Translations under genes and position numbers: made by a program
Shown: positions 24,617 to 39,378 of the stretch, in pieces
Layout: each line of letters starts with the position of its first letter
Position numbering within the stretch: position 1 is the first letter of the stretch
The notes under the pieces: model-generated
The model's database searches: none
Told to the model about the DNA's origin: nothing
What the model saw: the letters and a program-made list of their open reading frames with translations, nothing else
Source of the DNA: Acidobacteriota bacterium
GTDB lineage: Bacteria; Acidobacteriota; Blastocatellia; HR10
Reading direction: 5' to 3'
Length of the DNA stretch: 64,000 nt
Assembly (NCBI GenBank): GCA_030550025.1
Contig: JAUQQC010000005.1
Location: forward strand, 138,857-202,856

Positions 24617-26020
24617 ATGGCTCTGCGCCTTCTCCGACCCAGACGCTCGAACGAACGAACGCGTCGGAGATTGCATCCGGCATCTCCTGAGCTGCTGGTG
24701 CGCCCTCGGACATCCCCGGAATCATTGTCAGAAACGGGCGTGGTCTTCGCGCTCTCTTCCCCCCGAGCCCGCGCGCTGTTTCTCCTGATTTGGCTCGCGC
24801 TGCTGGGCTATGGGGCACATAGCCTTGTGCGCGAATTCCGCGGGTATGCTTTGGCCTCGCTCTTTCAGGACGTCGAGGGATTGGCAGACGCATTACGGTT
24901 CACTCCGGTAGCGCCGGAACTGCACGAGCAGCTCGGGATGATCTACCTCCTTGATCCCGCGCACTTCGATCCGCCAAAAGCCGTGGCCCATTTTCGTCAG
25001 GCCGTCGCGCTCTCTCCTTACGATGTGCGATACTGGGTGGGATTGGGACGCGCCTTTGAAGCGAATGGCAAGTGGGAGCAAGCAGCGCGAGCGTATGAGC
25101 GGGCCATTGTGCTGGCCCCGCATCATTTTCGCCCTCGCTGGCTCTATGCCAATTTCCTGTTGCGCAGCGGGCGAACGGAGGCCGCAGTTGAGCACCTCTG
25201 GCCGCTTGTGGAGGCGGCGCCGGACGTCGTGGAGAATGTTTGCGATTTGATCTGGCACGTGCGCGAAGGGGATGCGACCGCGTTGCAACGTTTGGCTGAA
25301 GGACGTCCCTCATGGGTGGCGGTGAAGATCGGGGAATACCTTCTAGCGAGGGGGCGAGCGGAAGAGGCCATCGCCTTGTGGTGGAAGCTGCCACGATGGG
25401 ACGACGCGGCGCGCGAAGGCGGGCGACGCTTGGTGCGAGGACTCGTGCGCGCGCGGCAATGGGCGGAGGCCGAACGGGTCTGGCGCGAGTGGCTGCGCCG
25501 GGAACACGGGCGAGAGCCCACGACGACTTTCTGGAACGGCGATTTTGCGCATCCGGTCGTCGAAGGGGGATTGGACTGGCGGATCACCTCCTCGCGCGAA
25601 GTTGCGGCCGGCATTGATGAGAGCGTCGGGTATGGGGATGTGCGTTCGCTCGTTCTGGAGTTTCGCGGGCACGAGGGGGTGCGATATGCGGGCATCAGGC
25701 GCGAGATCGTGGTCGAACCTGCGACGCGCTACGTGCTTCGATTCGCGTACAAGACGCAGGGGATGCTCTCATCCAACGGACTGTACATCGAAATCGCCGA
25801 TGCCGAAGATGCGCACCGGATGCGCGTGCGGCGGGAATCGCTCGCCGCGAGCCCGGAGTGGGCGCTCGTGCACCTGGAATTCGTGACGACGGCCCAGACG
25901 CGCGCGGTACAACTGGTGCTCGGCCGCGAGCCGACGCATCCGCTCCACGACTACATTCGCGGGCGCGTCTGGTTCGACGCATTTACGCTCGTGCGGGCAT
26001 CCGATGGTCCGAATGCTTGA
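24617..26020 (+). CDS. membrane-anchored TPR-repeat protein with C-terminal beta-rich domain
   Basis: ORF track 467 aa. TM ALFLLIWLALLGYGAHSLV, TPR-like helices (AVAHFRQAVALSPYDVRYWVGLGRAFEANGKWEQAARAYERAI), then ~150-aa beta-rich C-terminus. True start uncertain. Confidence 0.55.
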   Translation: MALRLLRPRRSNERTRRRLHPASPELLVRPRTSPESLSETGVVFALSSPRARALFLLIWLALLGYGAHSLVREFRGYALASLFQDVEGLADALRFTPVAPELHEQLGMIYLLDPAHFDPPKAVAHFRQAVALSPYDVRYWVGLGRAFEANGKWEQAARAYERAIVLAPHHFRPRWLYANFLLRSGRTEAAVEHLWPLVEAAPDVVENVCDLIWHVREGDATALQRLAEGRPSWVAVKIGEYLLARGRAEEAIALWWKLPRWDDAAREGGRRLVRGLVRARQWAEAERVWREWLRREHGREPTTTFWNGDFAHPVVEGGLDWRITSSREVAAGIDESVGYGDVRSLVLEFRGHEGVRYAGIRREIVVEPATRYVLRFAYKTQGMLSSNGLYIEIADAEDAHRMRVRRESLAASPEWALVHLEFVTTAQTRAVQLVLGREPTHPLHDYIRGRVWFDAFTLVRASDGPNA

Positions 26021-27392
26021 ACGGTTGATGCTGGTGGGACTGCTCGCGGCCGTGTTCCTGGCGCCCTGGATGTTCGGCGCCGTGGAACCATGGGCGATCC
26101 ATGCGCTCACGGCGATTCTTCTGGTCCTGCTTCTGCTCTGGGGGGTGAAGGCTGTTCTGGAGCGCGCCCTGCGGATACATCCGACGGCGATTCACGGCGT
26201 GCTGCTGGGTGCGTTGCTGATTGCGGGCATACAGGTTGCCCGAGCGCCGAGTTCGACATCAGAAGCGGACTCGGCGGCCTTCGTCGTGGCGGAGGCTCCG
26301 CACATAAGCTCAGCGACCGTCGTGAGCGCTCGCGGATCTCAGGATCCGCCGAGCACGCGTCGAGCGATGTGGCAGCTCGCCGTGCTGATCGGATACTTCG
26401 GACTGGCGCGGGAGCTACTTCGCGGAGCGCGCCGATTAGCCGGCGCGTTCGTCATGCTCATGCTCCTGGGTTTTCTCCTTTCACTCGTCGGCTTGATTCA
26501 GAAATTCTCCGGCACTGGACGGCTCCTCTGGATTCGCGAAGTAGAAGCCCCGGAGATTGCCTTCGGCCCATTCGTCAATCGGAATCACGCGGCCGGGTTC
26601 CTAGAGTTGCTCTTTCCGTTGCCGGTGGCGGCGATCCTAGGGCGTGGGGTAGCGCGCGAGCGGTGGGGGATATGCGCTGCGCTGGCGTTGGTCATGGGGA
26701 CCGCTATTGTGCTGACGGGGTCGCGCGGGGGGTTGCTGGTGCTCGGCACACAGGTGCTCGCACTGCTGTTGTTGTGGTGGGCGGTGAACGCGCGTGCGGG
26801 TCAAAGCCTTCGTTCCGGCGCGCTGATGGTGGGGCTGCTGAGCGCGGGGATTCTGGCGGGTGTCCTGTGGATCGGCGCCGAACCGGTCGTGAGCCGATGG
26901 CGGACGCCGGAGGGCGTGGAGGCGGCGTTCTCGAATCCACCCGATCGTCCCATGATCTGGCGAGCGACCTGGGATATGATCCGAGACCACCTTTGGTGGG
27001 GCGTCGGATTGGGGGCGTATTCGGTCGCCTACACGCGCTACGATCGCTCGGCCGGACTCGCTCGCGTCGAGCACGCGCACAACGACTATCTGCAATTGGT
27101 GGCTGAACTGGGCGTGTGGGGGATCGCGCTGCTTCTCGGATTTCTGATCGCCCTGTGGCGTGCGATCCGACGAGCTCTGCCCCAGACGGAGAGGTACCCT
27201 GCCCCGCGATGGGAACGTGCACTGGCACTTGGGGTGACCGTCGCGCTTATCGGCATGGGCATCCACAGCGCATTCGACTTCAACCTGCAGGTGACGGCGA
27301 ATGCGCTCCTATTTCTACTGCTCATCGCGCTCTTGGAGAACCTCGGCGCTCGGGGAGCGGATCACCAGCTTATCGAGGAGAAGGGGATATGA
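26004..27392 (+). CDS. O-antigen ligase / Wzy_C-family polytopic membrane protein
   Basis: ORF track 462 aa. About 10-12 predicted TMs and a periplasmic loop with ...[20 protein letters not shown]... as in the WaaL/Wzy/PglL family. Confidence 0.7.
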
Positions 27393-38191: not shown

Positions 38192-38205
38192 GGTGCGAAA
38201 GGAAG

Positions 38206-39378
38206 ATGCGGATCCTCATCCTCTGTCCCGACTATCCGCCGAAACGAAGCGGGCTGGCGGATCACACGCGGCATCTGGCCGAACATCTTCGCCGACTTGG
38301 CCGAAACGATGTCCTCGTGCTCACAACGCGCGATTCGGGAGAGCGAACGGCAGCGGCAGAGGAGGAGACAGAAGGGATCATCGTGCGCCGGGTCATCGCG
38401 CGGTGGGGATGGCGCGGCCTCGCGACGCTCGCGCGAGAGATCGCCCGCGCGGCACCGGATTGGATCCTCACGCCCTACGTGCCGCATGCCTATGGGCGAG
38501 GGGGGATCAACCTGGCCCTCCCTCTCGCGCTCGTTCGAGAGCGGCTCCGAGGCCGACGCATGCTGCTTCTGGTCCATGAGCTCTACGCCGACCTCTCGCT
38601 CTTCCCCCTCCGGCATCTGATCGCAGCGCTTGTGCAGCGCGCGATGTTCTGGCTCGCCGTCATCGCCGCGCGCGGCATCGTCGTCTCCATCGAACCCTGG
38701 GCGATGTGGCTTCGCCAAGCGTGGCCGATCCGATGGACGTGCGCGCGAATCTTTCACCTGCCCAGCCCCTCCAACATCGAGCCGGTGCCGACTGACCGCG
38801 AGCGCGCGCGCCGAGAATTCGGCATTCGAGAGGAAGAGATCGTCCTCGTGTTCTTCGGGACTCTGCATGTCTCGAAGAAGCGTGCGTGGCTCCTTCGGAG
38901 CGTGGAGGCGCTCTCGGCTCAAGGGATTCCGGCGCGCTTGCTTCTGATCGGGCCGGAATCGCAAGAGCTCCTTGCGCTCGCTCCGGCGGAAGTGCGGAGG
39001 AGGATCCTCGCCCTCGGATATGCGGATGCGGCGACCGTCTCGCGCGCTCTGCAGGCGAGCGACATCTTCCTCCTCCCGTTGAGCGATGGCGTCTCGACGC
39101 GACGCTCCTCGCTCATGGCGGCGCTCAGTCACGGGCTTCCGGTCGTGGGGACGTCGGGGCGATTGACCGACGAGCCGCTCGCACGCTCAGGAGCACTCCT
39201 TCTCTCGCCCGCCGATGATCTGGACGCATTCCTGCGACACGTCCTCACCTTGGCCGAAGACGCCGAGCGGCGTCGGCATCTCGGCGAACGCGGGCGCGCA
39301 CTCTATCGCGAGCGCTACAGCTGGCCCGTCGTCGTCGAACGCCTGCTCGCCATTTTGCGCGACCTCGAAGGGGATTGA
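38206..39378 (+). CDS. glycosyltransferase family 4
   Basis: ATG at 38206 (MRILILCPDYPPKRSGLADH...) with GAAAGGAAG RBS. GT4-like C-terminal domain SLMAALSHGLPVVGTSG. Confidence 0.75.
   Translation: MRILILCPDYPPKRSGLADHTRHLAEHLRRLGRNDVLVLTTRDSGERTAAAEEETEGIIVRRVIARWGWRGLATLAREIARAAPDWILTPYVPHAYGRGGINLALPLALVRERLRGRRMLLLVHELYADLSLFPLRHLIAALVQRAMFWLAVIAARGIVVSIEPWAMWLRQAWPIRWTCARIFHLPSPSNIEPVPTDRERARREFGIREEEIVLVFFGTLHVSKKRAWLLRSVEALSAQGIPARLLLIGPESQELLALAPAEVRRRILALGYADAATVSRALQASDIFLLPLSDGVSTRRSSLMAALSHGLPVVGTSGRLTDEPLARSGALLLSPADDLDAFLRHVLTLAEDAERRRHLGERGRALYRERYSWPVVVERLLAILRDLEGD

What the first reader, a model, noticed from the sequence alone, without database searches (positions are those of the whole stretch)
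24617..39378. A ~15 kb Wzx/Wzy-type glycan locus with no initiating transferase or export genes in view
Thirteen co-directional, tightly packed genes: TPR protein, Wzy_C-family protein, gmd, epimerase remnant, FemAB-like acyltransferase, hexapeptide acetyltransferase, Wzx flippase, anion transporter, five glycosyltransferases. This looks like a Wzx/Wzy-dependent heteropolysaccharide pathway with a GDP-6-deoxyhexose and acylated sugars. I see no polyprenyl-phosphate sugar transferase (WbaP/WecA type), Wzz/Wzc or Wza in the window. The Wzy_C protein paired with a TPR protein could alternatively be an O-oligosaccharyltransferase for protein glycosylation.
Basis: partly seen in the sequence, partly recalled or inferred. 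Interest (0 to 1): 0.5.

Follow-up and report, generated by a model that had tools for sequence, protein, structure and literature searches.

The report
Acidobacterial surface-glycan operon with TPR-partnered Wzy_C enzyme
This is an ordinary-looking operon for building a lipid-linked surface sugar chain in a hot-spring acidobacterium; its one unusual feature is that the final membrane enzyme always travels with a previously uncharacterised sugar-binding helper protein.

Summary
Window 24617-39378 holds the 13 listed co-directional features. They are a TPR protein, a Wzy_C protein, gmd, a decayed epimerase stub, a FemAB-like transferase, a hexapeptide acetyltransferase, a Wzx flippase, a MOT1-type anion transporter and five GT4 glycosyltransferases.

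A 14th conserved gene (23927-24610) belongs at the 5' end. No initiating phosphoglycosyltransferase, Wza or Wzc/Wzz lies in the 64 kb window or in 10 kb beyond its start.

The organism is a hot-spring Blastocatellia bacterium (Acidobacteriota). The operon is syntenic in relatives.

The "TPR protein" is a membrane-anchored periplasmic TPR plus a carbohydrate-binding-module-like beta-sandwich.
- It sits directly upstream of the Wzy_C gene in 76 of 80 related loci.
- It occurs naturally fused to Wzy_C in other organisms.
- In relatives the pair is followed by Wza-Wzc (23 loci) or preceded by a WecA-type transferase (34 loci).

The missing functions are therefore most likely encoded elsewhere, as in E. 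coli O-antigen clusters. The anion transporter is a lineage-specific passenger.

Whether the Wzy_C enzyme polymerises or ligates remains unresolved. Overall this is a known kind of locus carrying an undescribed accessory module, of modest interest.

The parts
23699..23728 (+). Promoter-like site (TTGACT-18-TACCAT) in the 313-nt gap ahead of the first gene
   Evidence: This is only a consensus match, and acidobacterial promoters are not well covered by the scan.
23927..24610 (+). Conserved 227-aa protein with a signal peptide, a beta-rich periplasmic part (weak FecR-like hit) and a C-terminal TM helix with an invariant tail ARGE(R/K)SKVVSPVAP. Likely the third member of the Wzy_C module.
   Evidence: FecR E=0.02, below threshold. 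Synteny in L007-L010. An HMM finds distant homologs directly upstream of the TPR gene in nine Wza/Wzc-type loci (L020, L021, L022, L025, L028, L049, L056, L061, L065) and next to Wzy_C in L012.
24725..26020 (+). Membrane-anchored periplasmic TPR plus CBM-like beta-sandwich protein, the partner of Wzy_C. Alternative starts are 24617 and 24698.
   Evidence: Pfam TPR hits. AF2 model with pLDDT 90.5 shows a TM helix at 13-46, TPRs at 50-261 and a beta-sandwich at 293-424 that matches CBM16/CBM4-2/CBM70 (TMt about 0.7). It is adjacent to Wzy_C in 76/80 loci. Natural fusions are P0407, P0454, P0421 and P0169.
26004..27392 (+). Polytopic Wzy_C-family enzyme that acts on Und-PP-linked glycan, as polymerase or ligase. 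It overlaps the TPR gene by 17 nt.
   Evidence: PF04932 at 82 bits. Profile hit to WaaL 7TPG, E=2e-12. AF2 model pLDDT 87; the best fold match is WaaL, then the SEDS polymerases FtsW/RodA. Invariant residues include R241, R315, H359 and H421.
27389..28426 (+). GDP-mannose 4,6-dehydratase (gmd)
   Evidence: TIGR01472 at 447.8 bits against a cutoff of 415. It is 90-94% identical in L007-L009.
28450..28633 (+). Pseudogene stub of an SDR epimerase/reductase: the N-terminal Rossmann part with a frameshift; the remainder is deleted
   Evidence: tblastn with the intact 329-aa L007 epimerase gives 68% identity over 40 aa in one frame and 50% over 38 aa in another. The gene is intact in L007 and absent in L008 and L009.
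28687..29709 (+). FemAB-fold (Acetyltransf_6) acyl- or aminoacyl-transferase, presumed to decorate the glycan
   Evidence: PF13480 at 65 bits and PF02388 at 50 bits. TIGR03019 at 84 bits, below its cutoff of 260. It is 70-87% identical in L007-L010.
29706..30311 (+). Left-handed beta-helix (hexapeptide) acetyltransferase
   Evidence: PF00132 and PF14602. No NCBIfam model reaches its cutoff. The ATGA start overlaps the FemAB stop.
30344..31873 (+). Wzx-type MOP flippase
   Evidence: Polysacc_synt_3 at 256 bits. PRK10459 at 255 bits against a cutoff of 273. 27% identical to E. coli WzxC.
31978..33153 (+). MOT1-type putative sulfate/molybdate transporter (ORF open from 31870). A lineage-specific passenger, probably not part of the glycan pathway.
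   Evidence: PF16983 at 191 bits. It is present only in the window, L007 and L008, and absent in L009 and L010. Homologs are 65-75% identical across Anaerolineae, KSB1 and Acidobacteriota, and are not next to glycan genes in L098 or L099.
33239..34432 (+). GT4 glycosyltransferase 1 (WcaL-like)
34439..35815 (+). GT4 glycosyltransferase 2
35781..36950 (+). GT4 glycosyltransferase 3
36962..38191 (+). GT4 glycosyltransferase 4 (alternative start 36947)
38206..39378 (+). GT4 glycosyltransferase 5; only the C-terminal GT1 domain scores well

Best explanation
This is one vertically inherited operon (about 23927-39378) of a thermophilic Blastocatellia bacterium. It assembles an undecaprenyl-phosphate-linked heteroglycan by a Wzx-dependent route.

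Proposed steps:
1. A phosphoglycosyltransferase encoded elsewhere primes the lipid carrier. It is most likely WecA-type, as found next to the same module in relatives.
2. Five GT4 enzymes extend the unit. One sugar is probably a GDP-6-deoxyhexose that starts from Gmd.
3. A FemAB-fold transferase and a hexapeptide acetyltransferase decorate the unit.
4. Wzx flips it to the periplasmic face.
5. The Wzy_C enzyme works there with its membrane-anchored TPR + CBM-like partner, and probably with the small FecR-like protein.

I favour the view that this module polymerises the repeat unit, with the CBM-like domain holding the growing chain. Export or ligation would then be carried out by genes outside the window.

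What is shown: gene identities, operon-like packing, synteny, the architecture of the partner protein, its near-universal adjacency to Wzy_C, and its natural fusion to Wzy_C.

What is inferred: the order of steps, the polymerase role, and the location of the missing genes.
For: - Families and coordinates.
- Synteny and per-gene identity (gmd 90-94%; FemAB, Hexapep and GT1-3 at 56-88%; Wzy_C 46-72%) in L007-L010.
- The TPR gene lies adjacent and co-directional upstream of Wzy_C in 76 of 80 eligible loci. Wza-Wzc follow directly downstream in 23 of 76.
- A WecA-type transferase lies just upstream of the pair in 34 loci.
- Natural Wzy_C::TPR::CBM fusions (P0407 at 868 aa with CBM_4_9 above threshold, P0454, P0421, P0169).
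- Partner architecture.
- Wzy_C fold is WaaL/SEDS-like.
- In the window, and in the informative Wza/Wzc-type loci L011, L013, L031 and L090, the TPR-paired Wzy_C is the only polymerase candidate beside a flippase.
- E. coli O16 rfb shows that clusters of this type normally lack the initiating transferase and export genes.
Against: - No initiating transferase, Wzc/Wzz or Wza lies within about 74 kb.
- The Wzy_C family cannot be told apart from WaaL or O-OTases by sequence or fold. Its only solved relative is a ligase.
- The pair is kept across loci with quite different glycosyltransferase sets, which is unusual for linkage-specific polymerases.
- Some Wza/Wzc-type loci carry an extra polytopic protein without a family assignment (L022, L026) or a second Wzy_C paralog (L036). 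These could be the real polymerases.
- The reductase/epimerase partner of Gmd is a pseudogene stub here.
Confidence: 0.5

Rival explanations
1. The operon and lipid-linked assembly are the same, but the Wzy_C/TPR-CBM module is a ligase rather than a polymerase. It would transfer the flipped oligosaccharide en bloc to lipid A-core (WaaL-like) or to periplasmic or surface proteins (PglL-like O-oligosaccharyltransferase). The TPR domain would recognise the acceptor and the CBM-like domain the glycan.
For: - The best sequence and fold match is the WaaL ligase 7TPG.
- The S-R-G, R-x3-W and H-A-H-N-D segments align to WaaL, and H359-N-X9-G-X2-G fits the ligase motif as I recall it.
- The pair is conserved across loci with different glycosyltransferase sets, including compact loci with one transferase-primer and only one or two GTs and no Wza/Wzc (L014, L100).
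- The window lacks Wzz/Wzc and Wza, which a non-polymerised glycan would not need.
- L036 has a second Wzy_C, and L022 and L026 have unassigned polytopic proteins that could be the polymerases.
Against: - 23 loci place the pair immediately before Wza-Wzc.
- The window protein shows no PglL_A or Wzy_C_2 domains and no TfpM/PglL-type NCBIfam hit.
- No LPS core (waa) genes lie nearby.
- A Wzx plus five-GT operon would be left with no polymerase candidate at all.
Confidence: 0.35
2. The locus is decaying or only partly functional. The epimerase has been lost and an unrelated transporter inserted, so the encoded glycan is no longer made as in the ancestor.
For: The epimerase stub and the passenger MOT1 gene inside the operon.
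Against: - All other 12 genes are intact, full-length and well conserved.
- gmd is the best-conserved gene (90-94%) even in relatives that lost the epimerase.
- The identical locus was recovered on 23 contigs from several samples.
Confidence: 0.07
3. The genes are a chance juxtaposition of separate transcription units with unrelated functions.
For: Weak promoter-like matches lie inside the region at 33480 and 36568. The MOT1 gene is functionally unrelated to the rest.
Against: Overlapping stop/start codons, no terminators above the chance expectation, and conserved order in relatives down to 46% Wzy_C identity.
Confidence: 0.03

Closest known systems
Enterobacterial O-antigen (rfb) clusters, e.g. 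E. coli K-12 O16 (rfbBDAC-rfbX-glf-wbbH-wbbIJKL)
   Same: The gene content is the same kind: nucleotide-sugar genes, Wzx, one polytopic polymerase-type protein, several glycosyltransferases and a hexapeptide acetyltransferase. The initiating transferase (wecA), the ligase and the export functions are encoded elsewhere.
   Different: The polytopic enzyme here is a Wzy_C/WaaL-like protein with a dedicated TPR-CBM partner. The locus is conserved across species rather than hypervariable. It also carries a FemAB-like transferase and a passenger transporter.
WaaL O-antigen ligase (Cupriavidus metallidurans, PDB 7TPG)
   Same: Same Pfam domain. Profile E=2e-12, best fold match (TMt 0.59), and aligned Arg/Arg/His-containing periplasmic segments.
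   Different: Only 18% identity. WaaL has no known TPR-CBM partner, and no LPS core genes lie nearby. In relatives the pair sits next to Wza-Wzc or a WecA-type transferase.
Group 1 capsule / colanic acid type Wzx/Wzy-Wza-Wzc pathways
   Same: In 23 related loci the orthologous pair is followed by Poly_export (Wza) and a GNVR/tyrosine-kinase Wzc. WzxC and WcaL are the best E. coli matches for the window's Wzx and GT1.
   Different: The window itself has no Wza, Wzc or WcaJ. The polymerase candidate is unrelated to WcaD by profile comparison.
PglL/TfpO-type O-oligosaccharyltransferases (general protein O-glycosylation)
   Same: A Wzy_C catalytic domain, a flippase-dependent lipid-linked oligosaccharide donor, and no need for Wzz or Wza.
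   Different: The window protein has no PglL_A or Wzy_C_2 domains and no TfpM/PglL NCBIfam hit. No acceptor protein is identified.
Polytopic polymerase plus single-pass periplasmic partner pairs (SEDS RodA/FtsW with class B PBPs; WzyE with WzzE)
   Same: The Wzy_C model also matches FtsW and RodA. As in those pairs, the partner is a single-pass membrane protein with a large periplasmic domain, encoded next door.
   Different: The partner's domains (TPR plus CBM-like sandwich) are unrelated to PBPs or Wzz. Physical interaction is inferred only from adjacency and gene fusion.
PEP-CTERM/XrtA exopolysaccharide loci
   Same: Weak hits to the system's FemAB-like protein, O-ligase-like protein, TPR protein and stp glycosyltransferase models.
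   Different: All scores are far below the curated cutoffs, and no exosortase gene was found in the window.

Membership tests
Wzx/Wzy-dependent polysaccharide pathway | MOP-family Wzx flippase | tested here: met
   Polysacc_synt_3 at 256 bits and Polysacc_synt at 137 bits. PRK10459 at 255 bits, just under its cutoff of 273.
Wzx/Wzy-dependent polysaccharide pathway | Wzy repeat-unit polymerase | tested here: inconclusive
   One Wzy_C-domain protein is present. That domain also covers ligases and O-OTases. The only solved relative is WaaL. There is no similarity to E. coli WcaD, WbbH or WzyE.
Wzx/Wzy-dependent polysaccharide pathway | Initiating polyprenyl-phosphate sugar transferase (WbaP/WcaJ or WecA type) | tested here: not met
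   None in the window or in 10 kb beyond its start. A WecA-type enzyme is present next to the orthologous pair in 34 relatives.
Wzx/Wzy-dependent polysaccharide pathway | Polysaccharide co-polymerase (Wzz/Wzc) and outer-membrane exporter (Wza) | tested here: not met
   Absent from the window. Present directly downstream of the orthologous pair in 23 of 76 related loci.
Wzx/Wzy-dependent polysaccharide pathway | Set of glycosyltransferases and sugar-modifying enzymes in one unit | tested here: met
   Five GT4 genes, gmd, a FemAB-like transferase and a hexapeptide acetyltransferase.
WaaL O-antigen ligase | Wzy_C domain with conserved periplasmic Arg/Arg/His residues | tested here: met
   R241, R315 and H359 are invariant in 35 homologs and lie in segments that align to WaaL 7TPG. 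The equivalence to the catalytic residues rests on my recollection of the WaaL literature.
WaaL O-antigen ligase | Genomic linkage to LPS core biosynthesis genes | tested here: not met
   No heptosyl- or Kdo-transferase genes in the window. Compare the E. coli waa region.
WaaL O-antigen ligase | Transfers Und-PP-glycan to lipid A-core | not testable with these tools
   Needs genetics or biochemistry.
PglL/TfpO-type O-oligosaccharyltransferase | Wzy_C domain plus PglL_A or Wzy_C_2 accessory domains, or a hit to the TfpM/PglL models | tested here: not met
   Only PF04932 was found in the window protein at E<=0.01. The NCBIfam hits are IctB and PEP_O_lig_1, both far below cutoff. Wzy_C_2 is only a weak hit in the fusion P0169 (E=0.003), and TfpM a weak hit in P0407 (E=4e-4).
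PEP-CTERM/XrtA exopolysaccharide system | Exosortase gene and above-cutoff hits to the system-specific models | tested here: not met
   TIGR03097 scores 40 against 188, TIGR03019 scores 84 against 260, TIGR02917 scores 30 against 312, and the stp1-3 models are all far below cutoff. No exosortase appeared in the Pfam scans.
GDP-mannose 4,6-dehydratase (Gmd) | Score above the equivalog cutoff | tested here: met
   TIGR01472 at 447.8 bits against 415. 51% identical to E. coli Gmd.
Synthase-dependent TPR scaffold proteins (BcsC, PgaA, AlgK, PelB) | TPR protein paired with a membrane synthase and a beta-barrel exporter | tested here: not met
   No synthase or porin domain is present. The TPR protein has an N-terminal TM helix and a C-terminal CBM-like sandwich instead.

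The most novel reading that the evidence does not exclude
The FecR-like protein, the TM-TPR-CBM protein and the Wzy_C enzyme may form a previously undescribed periplasmic machine. It appears widespread in Acidobacteriota and occurs elsewhere as a single fused polypeptide. In this reading a WaaL/Wzy-fold enzyme is coupled to a glycan-binding, TPR-scaffolded partner, much as SEDS polymerases are coupled to PBPs. That coupling could define a distinct mode of chain-length control, or of acceptor selection for surface glycans or glycoproteins.
Probability: 0.35. Interest if true: 0.55.

Novelty: new variant of a known kind. Interest (0 to 1): 0.35.

Why it matters
Acidobacteriota are abundant but poorly studied, and almost nothing is known experimentally about how they build their surface glycans.

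The locus itself is a routine lipid-linked glycan operon. The analysis, however, shows that the Wzy_C enzyme has an obligate-looking partner across this class. The partner is a membrane-anchored TPR protein with a carbohydrate-binding-module-like domain, and it is sometimes fused to the enzyme.

This gives a concrete, testable handle on two questions. The first is how Wzy/WaaL-fold enzymes are regulated or targeted outside the enterobacterial models. The second is how to tell polymerases from ligases, a long-standing annotation problem.

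Tried and rejected
1. PEP-CTERM/exosortase system. I considered it because of the FemAB-like, TPR and O-ligase-like genes. I rejected it because all system-specific NCBIfam scores are far below cutoff and there is no exosortase.
2. Sulfated polysaccharide, with the MOT1 transporter supplying sulfate. I rejected it because there is no sulfotransferase. The transporter belongs to a highly conserved housekeeping family found without glycan genes elsewhere, and it is absent from the locus in L009 and L010.
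3. GDP-perosamine route using the DegT aminotransferase at 57240-58499. It lies 18 kb away among unrelated genes and matches no equivalog model, so this is not supported.
4. hhalign of the Wzy_C profile against single E. coli WaaL, WcaD, WbbH and WzyE sequences. Nothing was significant, so it is uninformative.
5. Fold search to separate Wzy from WaaL and PglL. The PDB hits are WaaL and the SEDS proteins only, with no Wzy or PglL entry among them, so it cannot discriminate.
6. A WecA motif regex missed the real WecA-like genes in relatives, which tblastn then found. The regex result is discarded.
7. The afdb50 fold library was unavailable.
8. Literature searches for a Wzy_C-TPR partnership, or for acidobacterial Wzy loci, found nothing relevant.
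9. Walking beyond the window start by 10 kb found only ccm, sugar-metabolism and regulatory genes.
10. NCBIfam gave no assignment for the extra polytopic proteins of L022, L026 and L036.

Full report

| Feature | Coordinates | Main evidence |
|---|---|---|
| TPR protein | 24617/24725-26020 | Pfam TPR hits |
| Wzy_C protein | 26004-27392 | PF04932, 82 bits |
| gmd | 27389-28426 | TIGR01472, 448 bits against cutoff 415 |
| Epimerase remnant | about 28450-28633 | see below |
| FemAB/Acetyltransf_6 protein | 28687-29709 | PF13480, PF02388 |
| Hexapeptide acetyltransferase | 29706-30311 | PF00132 |
| Wzx flippase | 30344-31873 | Polysacc_synt_3, 256 bits |
| MFS_MOT1 transporter | 31870/31978-33153 | PF16983 |
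| Five GT4 glycosyltransferases | 33239-39378 | GT4-family Pfam hits |

- Genes overlap by 4-35 nt or are separated by 114 nt or less. The exception is the 260 nt that hold the remnant.
- The remnant matches residues 7-68 of an intact 329-aa SDR epimerase found at the same position in relative L007. It is split over two reading frames, and the remaining 260 or so codons are gone.
- leuC follows at 39424, with a promoter-like site of its own. Another promoter-like site precedes the 227-aa gene at 23927-24610. Terminator-like sites are no more frequent than chance.
- That 227-aa gene is called by independent gene finders and is syntenic in relatives. It should be counted as the first gene of the unit.

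**Source and conservation.**
- The exact Wzy_C protein occurs on 23 metagenome contigs, several from hot-spring samples. Named homologs are Blastocatellia/Pyrinomonadaceae (Acidobacteriota).
- Relatives whose Wzy_C is 72%, 66%, 62% and 46% identical keep the order unk227-TPR-Wzy_C-(gmd)-FemAB-Hexapep-Wzx-GTs.
- Per-gene identities are: gmd 90-94%; FemAB 70-87%; Hexapep 68-88%; GT1-3 56-83%; Wzy_C 46-72%.
- This is a vertically inherited, conserved glycan locus rather than a hypervariable island.
- The epimerase is intact only in L007.
- The MOT1 gene is present only in the closest group. gmd is missing in L010. In L009 the locus is broken after Wzx.

**Missing functions.**
- Pfam/NCBIfam scans of essentially all window ORFs found no WbaP/WcaJ- or WecA-type transferase, no Wzz/Wzc and no Wza (coverage check).
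- tblastn with E. coli WcaJ, WecA, Wza, Wzc and WzzE, and with a relative's Wza and Wzc, also found none in the window.
- 10 kb beyond the window start is also negative.
- This is not unusual. The E. coli K-12 O16 cluster fetched as a control has the same make-up, with wecA, waaL and the export genes located elsewhere.

**The TPR protein.**
- An AlphaFold model built on 42 homologs (pLDDT 90.5) shows three parts: an N-terminal transmembrane helix, about seven TPR pairs, and a C-terminal beta-sandwich.
- The sandwich matches carbohydrate-binding modules CBM16, CBM4-2 and CBM70, with target TM-score about 0.7 and E about 1e-7.
- Pfam gives only a sub-threshold CBM_4_9 hit for the window protein. 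The hit is above threshold in homologs.
- In 86 related loci (six from exact look-ups, 80 GTDB species representatives), 76 of the 80 with enough upstream sequence carry this gene directly upstream of, and co-directional with, the Wzy_C gene.
- A search of 1.84 billion representatives with the C-terminal domain alone found 1471 relatives. Most are 400-470 aa with the same layout.
- Several relatives are full-length fusions. P0407 (868 aa) is Wzy_C + TPR + CBM_4_9. The others are P0454 (837 aa), P0421 and P0169.
- Near-universal adjacency plus gene fusion makes a functional partnership the most reasonable inference. No paper in the searchable library describes it.

**The 227-aa protein.**
- It has a signal peptide, a weak FecR-like middle part and a C-terminal membrane helix. 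An invariant cytoplasmic tail follows the helix.
- An HMM built from five orthologs finds distant homologs in the same position in nine Wza/Wzc-type loci, and next to Wzy_C in L012.
- It is probably a third member of the module.

**Context in relatives.** Three contexts recur.

| Type | Loci | Arrangement |
|---|---|---|
| A | 23 | TPR-Wzy_C-Wza-Wzc, often with a flippase further on |
| B | 34 | GT4-epimerase-[WecA-type transferase fused to a CoA_binding_3 domain]-TPR-Wzy_C-methyltransferase |
| C | window group | the operon described above |

- The fused gene P0407 sits in a compact locus: GT2-gmd-epimerase-GT4-WecA-type transferase-...-fusion.
- The pair therefore always accompanies undecaprenyl-phosphate-linked glycan assembly. 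The functions missing from the window are adjacent to it in other lineages.

**Polymerase or ligase?**
- The profile of 35 homologs hits only the WaaL ligase 7TPG in the PDB (E=2e-12). The SRG, R-x3-W and HAHND segments are aligned.
- The AlphaFold model (pLDDT 87) matches WaaL best, then the SEDS polymerases FtsW and RodA. Neither the sequence search nor the fold search returned a Wzy or PglL structure to compare with.

For a polymerase:
- It is the only candidate in an operon that has Wzx and five GTs.
- It directly precedes Wza-Wzc in 23 loci.
- In L011, L013, L031 and L090 the only other polytopic protein is a flippase.

For a ligase or O-oligosaccharyltransferase:
- The pair is retained across loci with different GT sets, including very compact ones.
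- L036 has a second Wzy_C, and L022 and L026 have unassigned polytopic proteins that could be the polymerases.
- The window needs no Wzz or Wza if nothing is polymerised.

I favour the polymerase reading at about 0.5 and put the ligase/O-OTase reading at about 0.35.

**Other components.**
- gmd is intact and is the best-conserved gene even where the neighbouring epimerase is lost. Its 4-keto-6-deoxy product is therefore presumably finished by an enzyme encoded elsewhere. No Fcl-like gene lies in the window.
- The FemAB-fold and hexapeptide transferases are a conserved pair. Their substrates are not assignable, because all equivalog scores are below cutoff.
- The MOT1-type transporter belongs to a very large family that is 65-75% identical across Anaerolineae, KSB1 and Acidobacteriota. 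Two distant members lie among unrelated genes. I treat it as a passenger.

**Verdict.** The locus is a member of a known kind of system. The new element is the conserved, sometimes fused, TM-TPR-CBM partner (plus a small FecR-like protein) of a Wzy_C enzyme. That justifies calling it a variant, and gives it modest interest.

Noticed in passing
window 17778-18000 (-): Cobalamin riboswitch (Rfam RF00174, 100 bits). It lies upstream of a minus-strand operon encoding a periplasmic binding protein, a FecCD permease, an ABC ATPase and a TonB-dependent receptor (12397-17841). The operon is probably for B12 uptake.
   Followed up: partly
window 28450-28633: The epimerase stub shows that the reductase/epimerase partner of gmd was lost in this lineage. 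It is intact in L007 and fully deleted in L008 and L009. gmd nevertheless stays 90-94% conserved.
   Followed up: yes
window 31870-33153: The MOT1-type putative sulfate/molybdate transporter is inserted between Wzx and the first GT. It is 72% identical to Anaerolineae proteins, an unusually high cross-phylum identity that may reflect horizontal transfer.
   Followed up: partly
window 23927-24610: The 227-aa protein ends in a transmembrane helix followed by an invariant tail, ARGE(R/K)SKVVSPVAP, in all five orthologs. The role of the tail is unknown.
   Followed up: partly
L010 13407-16130: In a relative whose Wzy_C is 46% identical, the Wzx flippase and the first GT4 glycosyltransferase are called as one 907-aa fused protein.
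   Followed up: no
L014 6709-8517: A 602-aa initiating transferase combines a WecA/MraY-type Glycos_transf_4 domain with a CoA_binding_3 domain, which is normally seen in WbaP/WcaJ-type enzymes. It lies directly upstream of the TPR-Wzy_C pair in many Pyrinomonadaceae loci.
   Followed up: partly
P0054: A 746-aa partial protein from a Blastocatellia MAG carries Poly_export, SLBB and Wzy_C domains in one call. It may be a read-through or a fusion of Wzy_C with Wza.
   Followed up: no
window 57240-58499 (-): A DegT/PseC-like sugar aminotransferase sits alone between a permease gene and a CofH/MqnC-like radical SAM gene, away from any other sugar genes.
   Followed up: no
window 7885-10275 (-): An ABC-transporter permease domain and a solute-binding domain lie in one open reading frame. 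It is called as a single 609-aa protein on the metagenome contig L095.
   Followed up: no
window 49095-51563 (-): An 822-aa LonB/LonC-like AAA protease gene.
   Followed up: no
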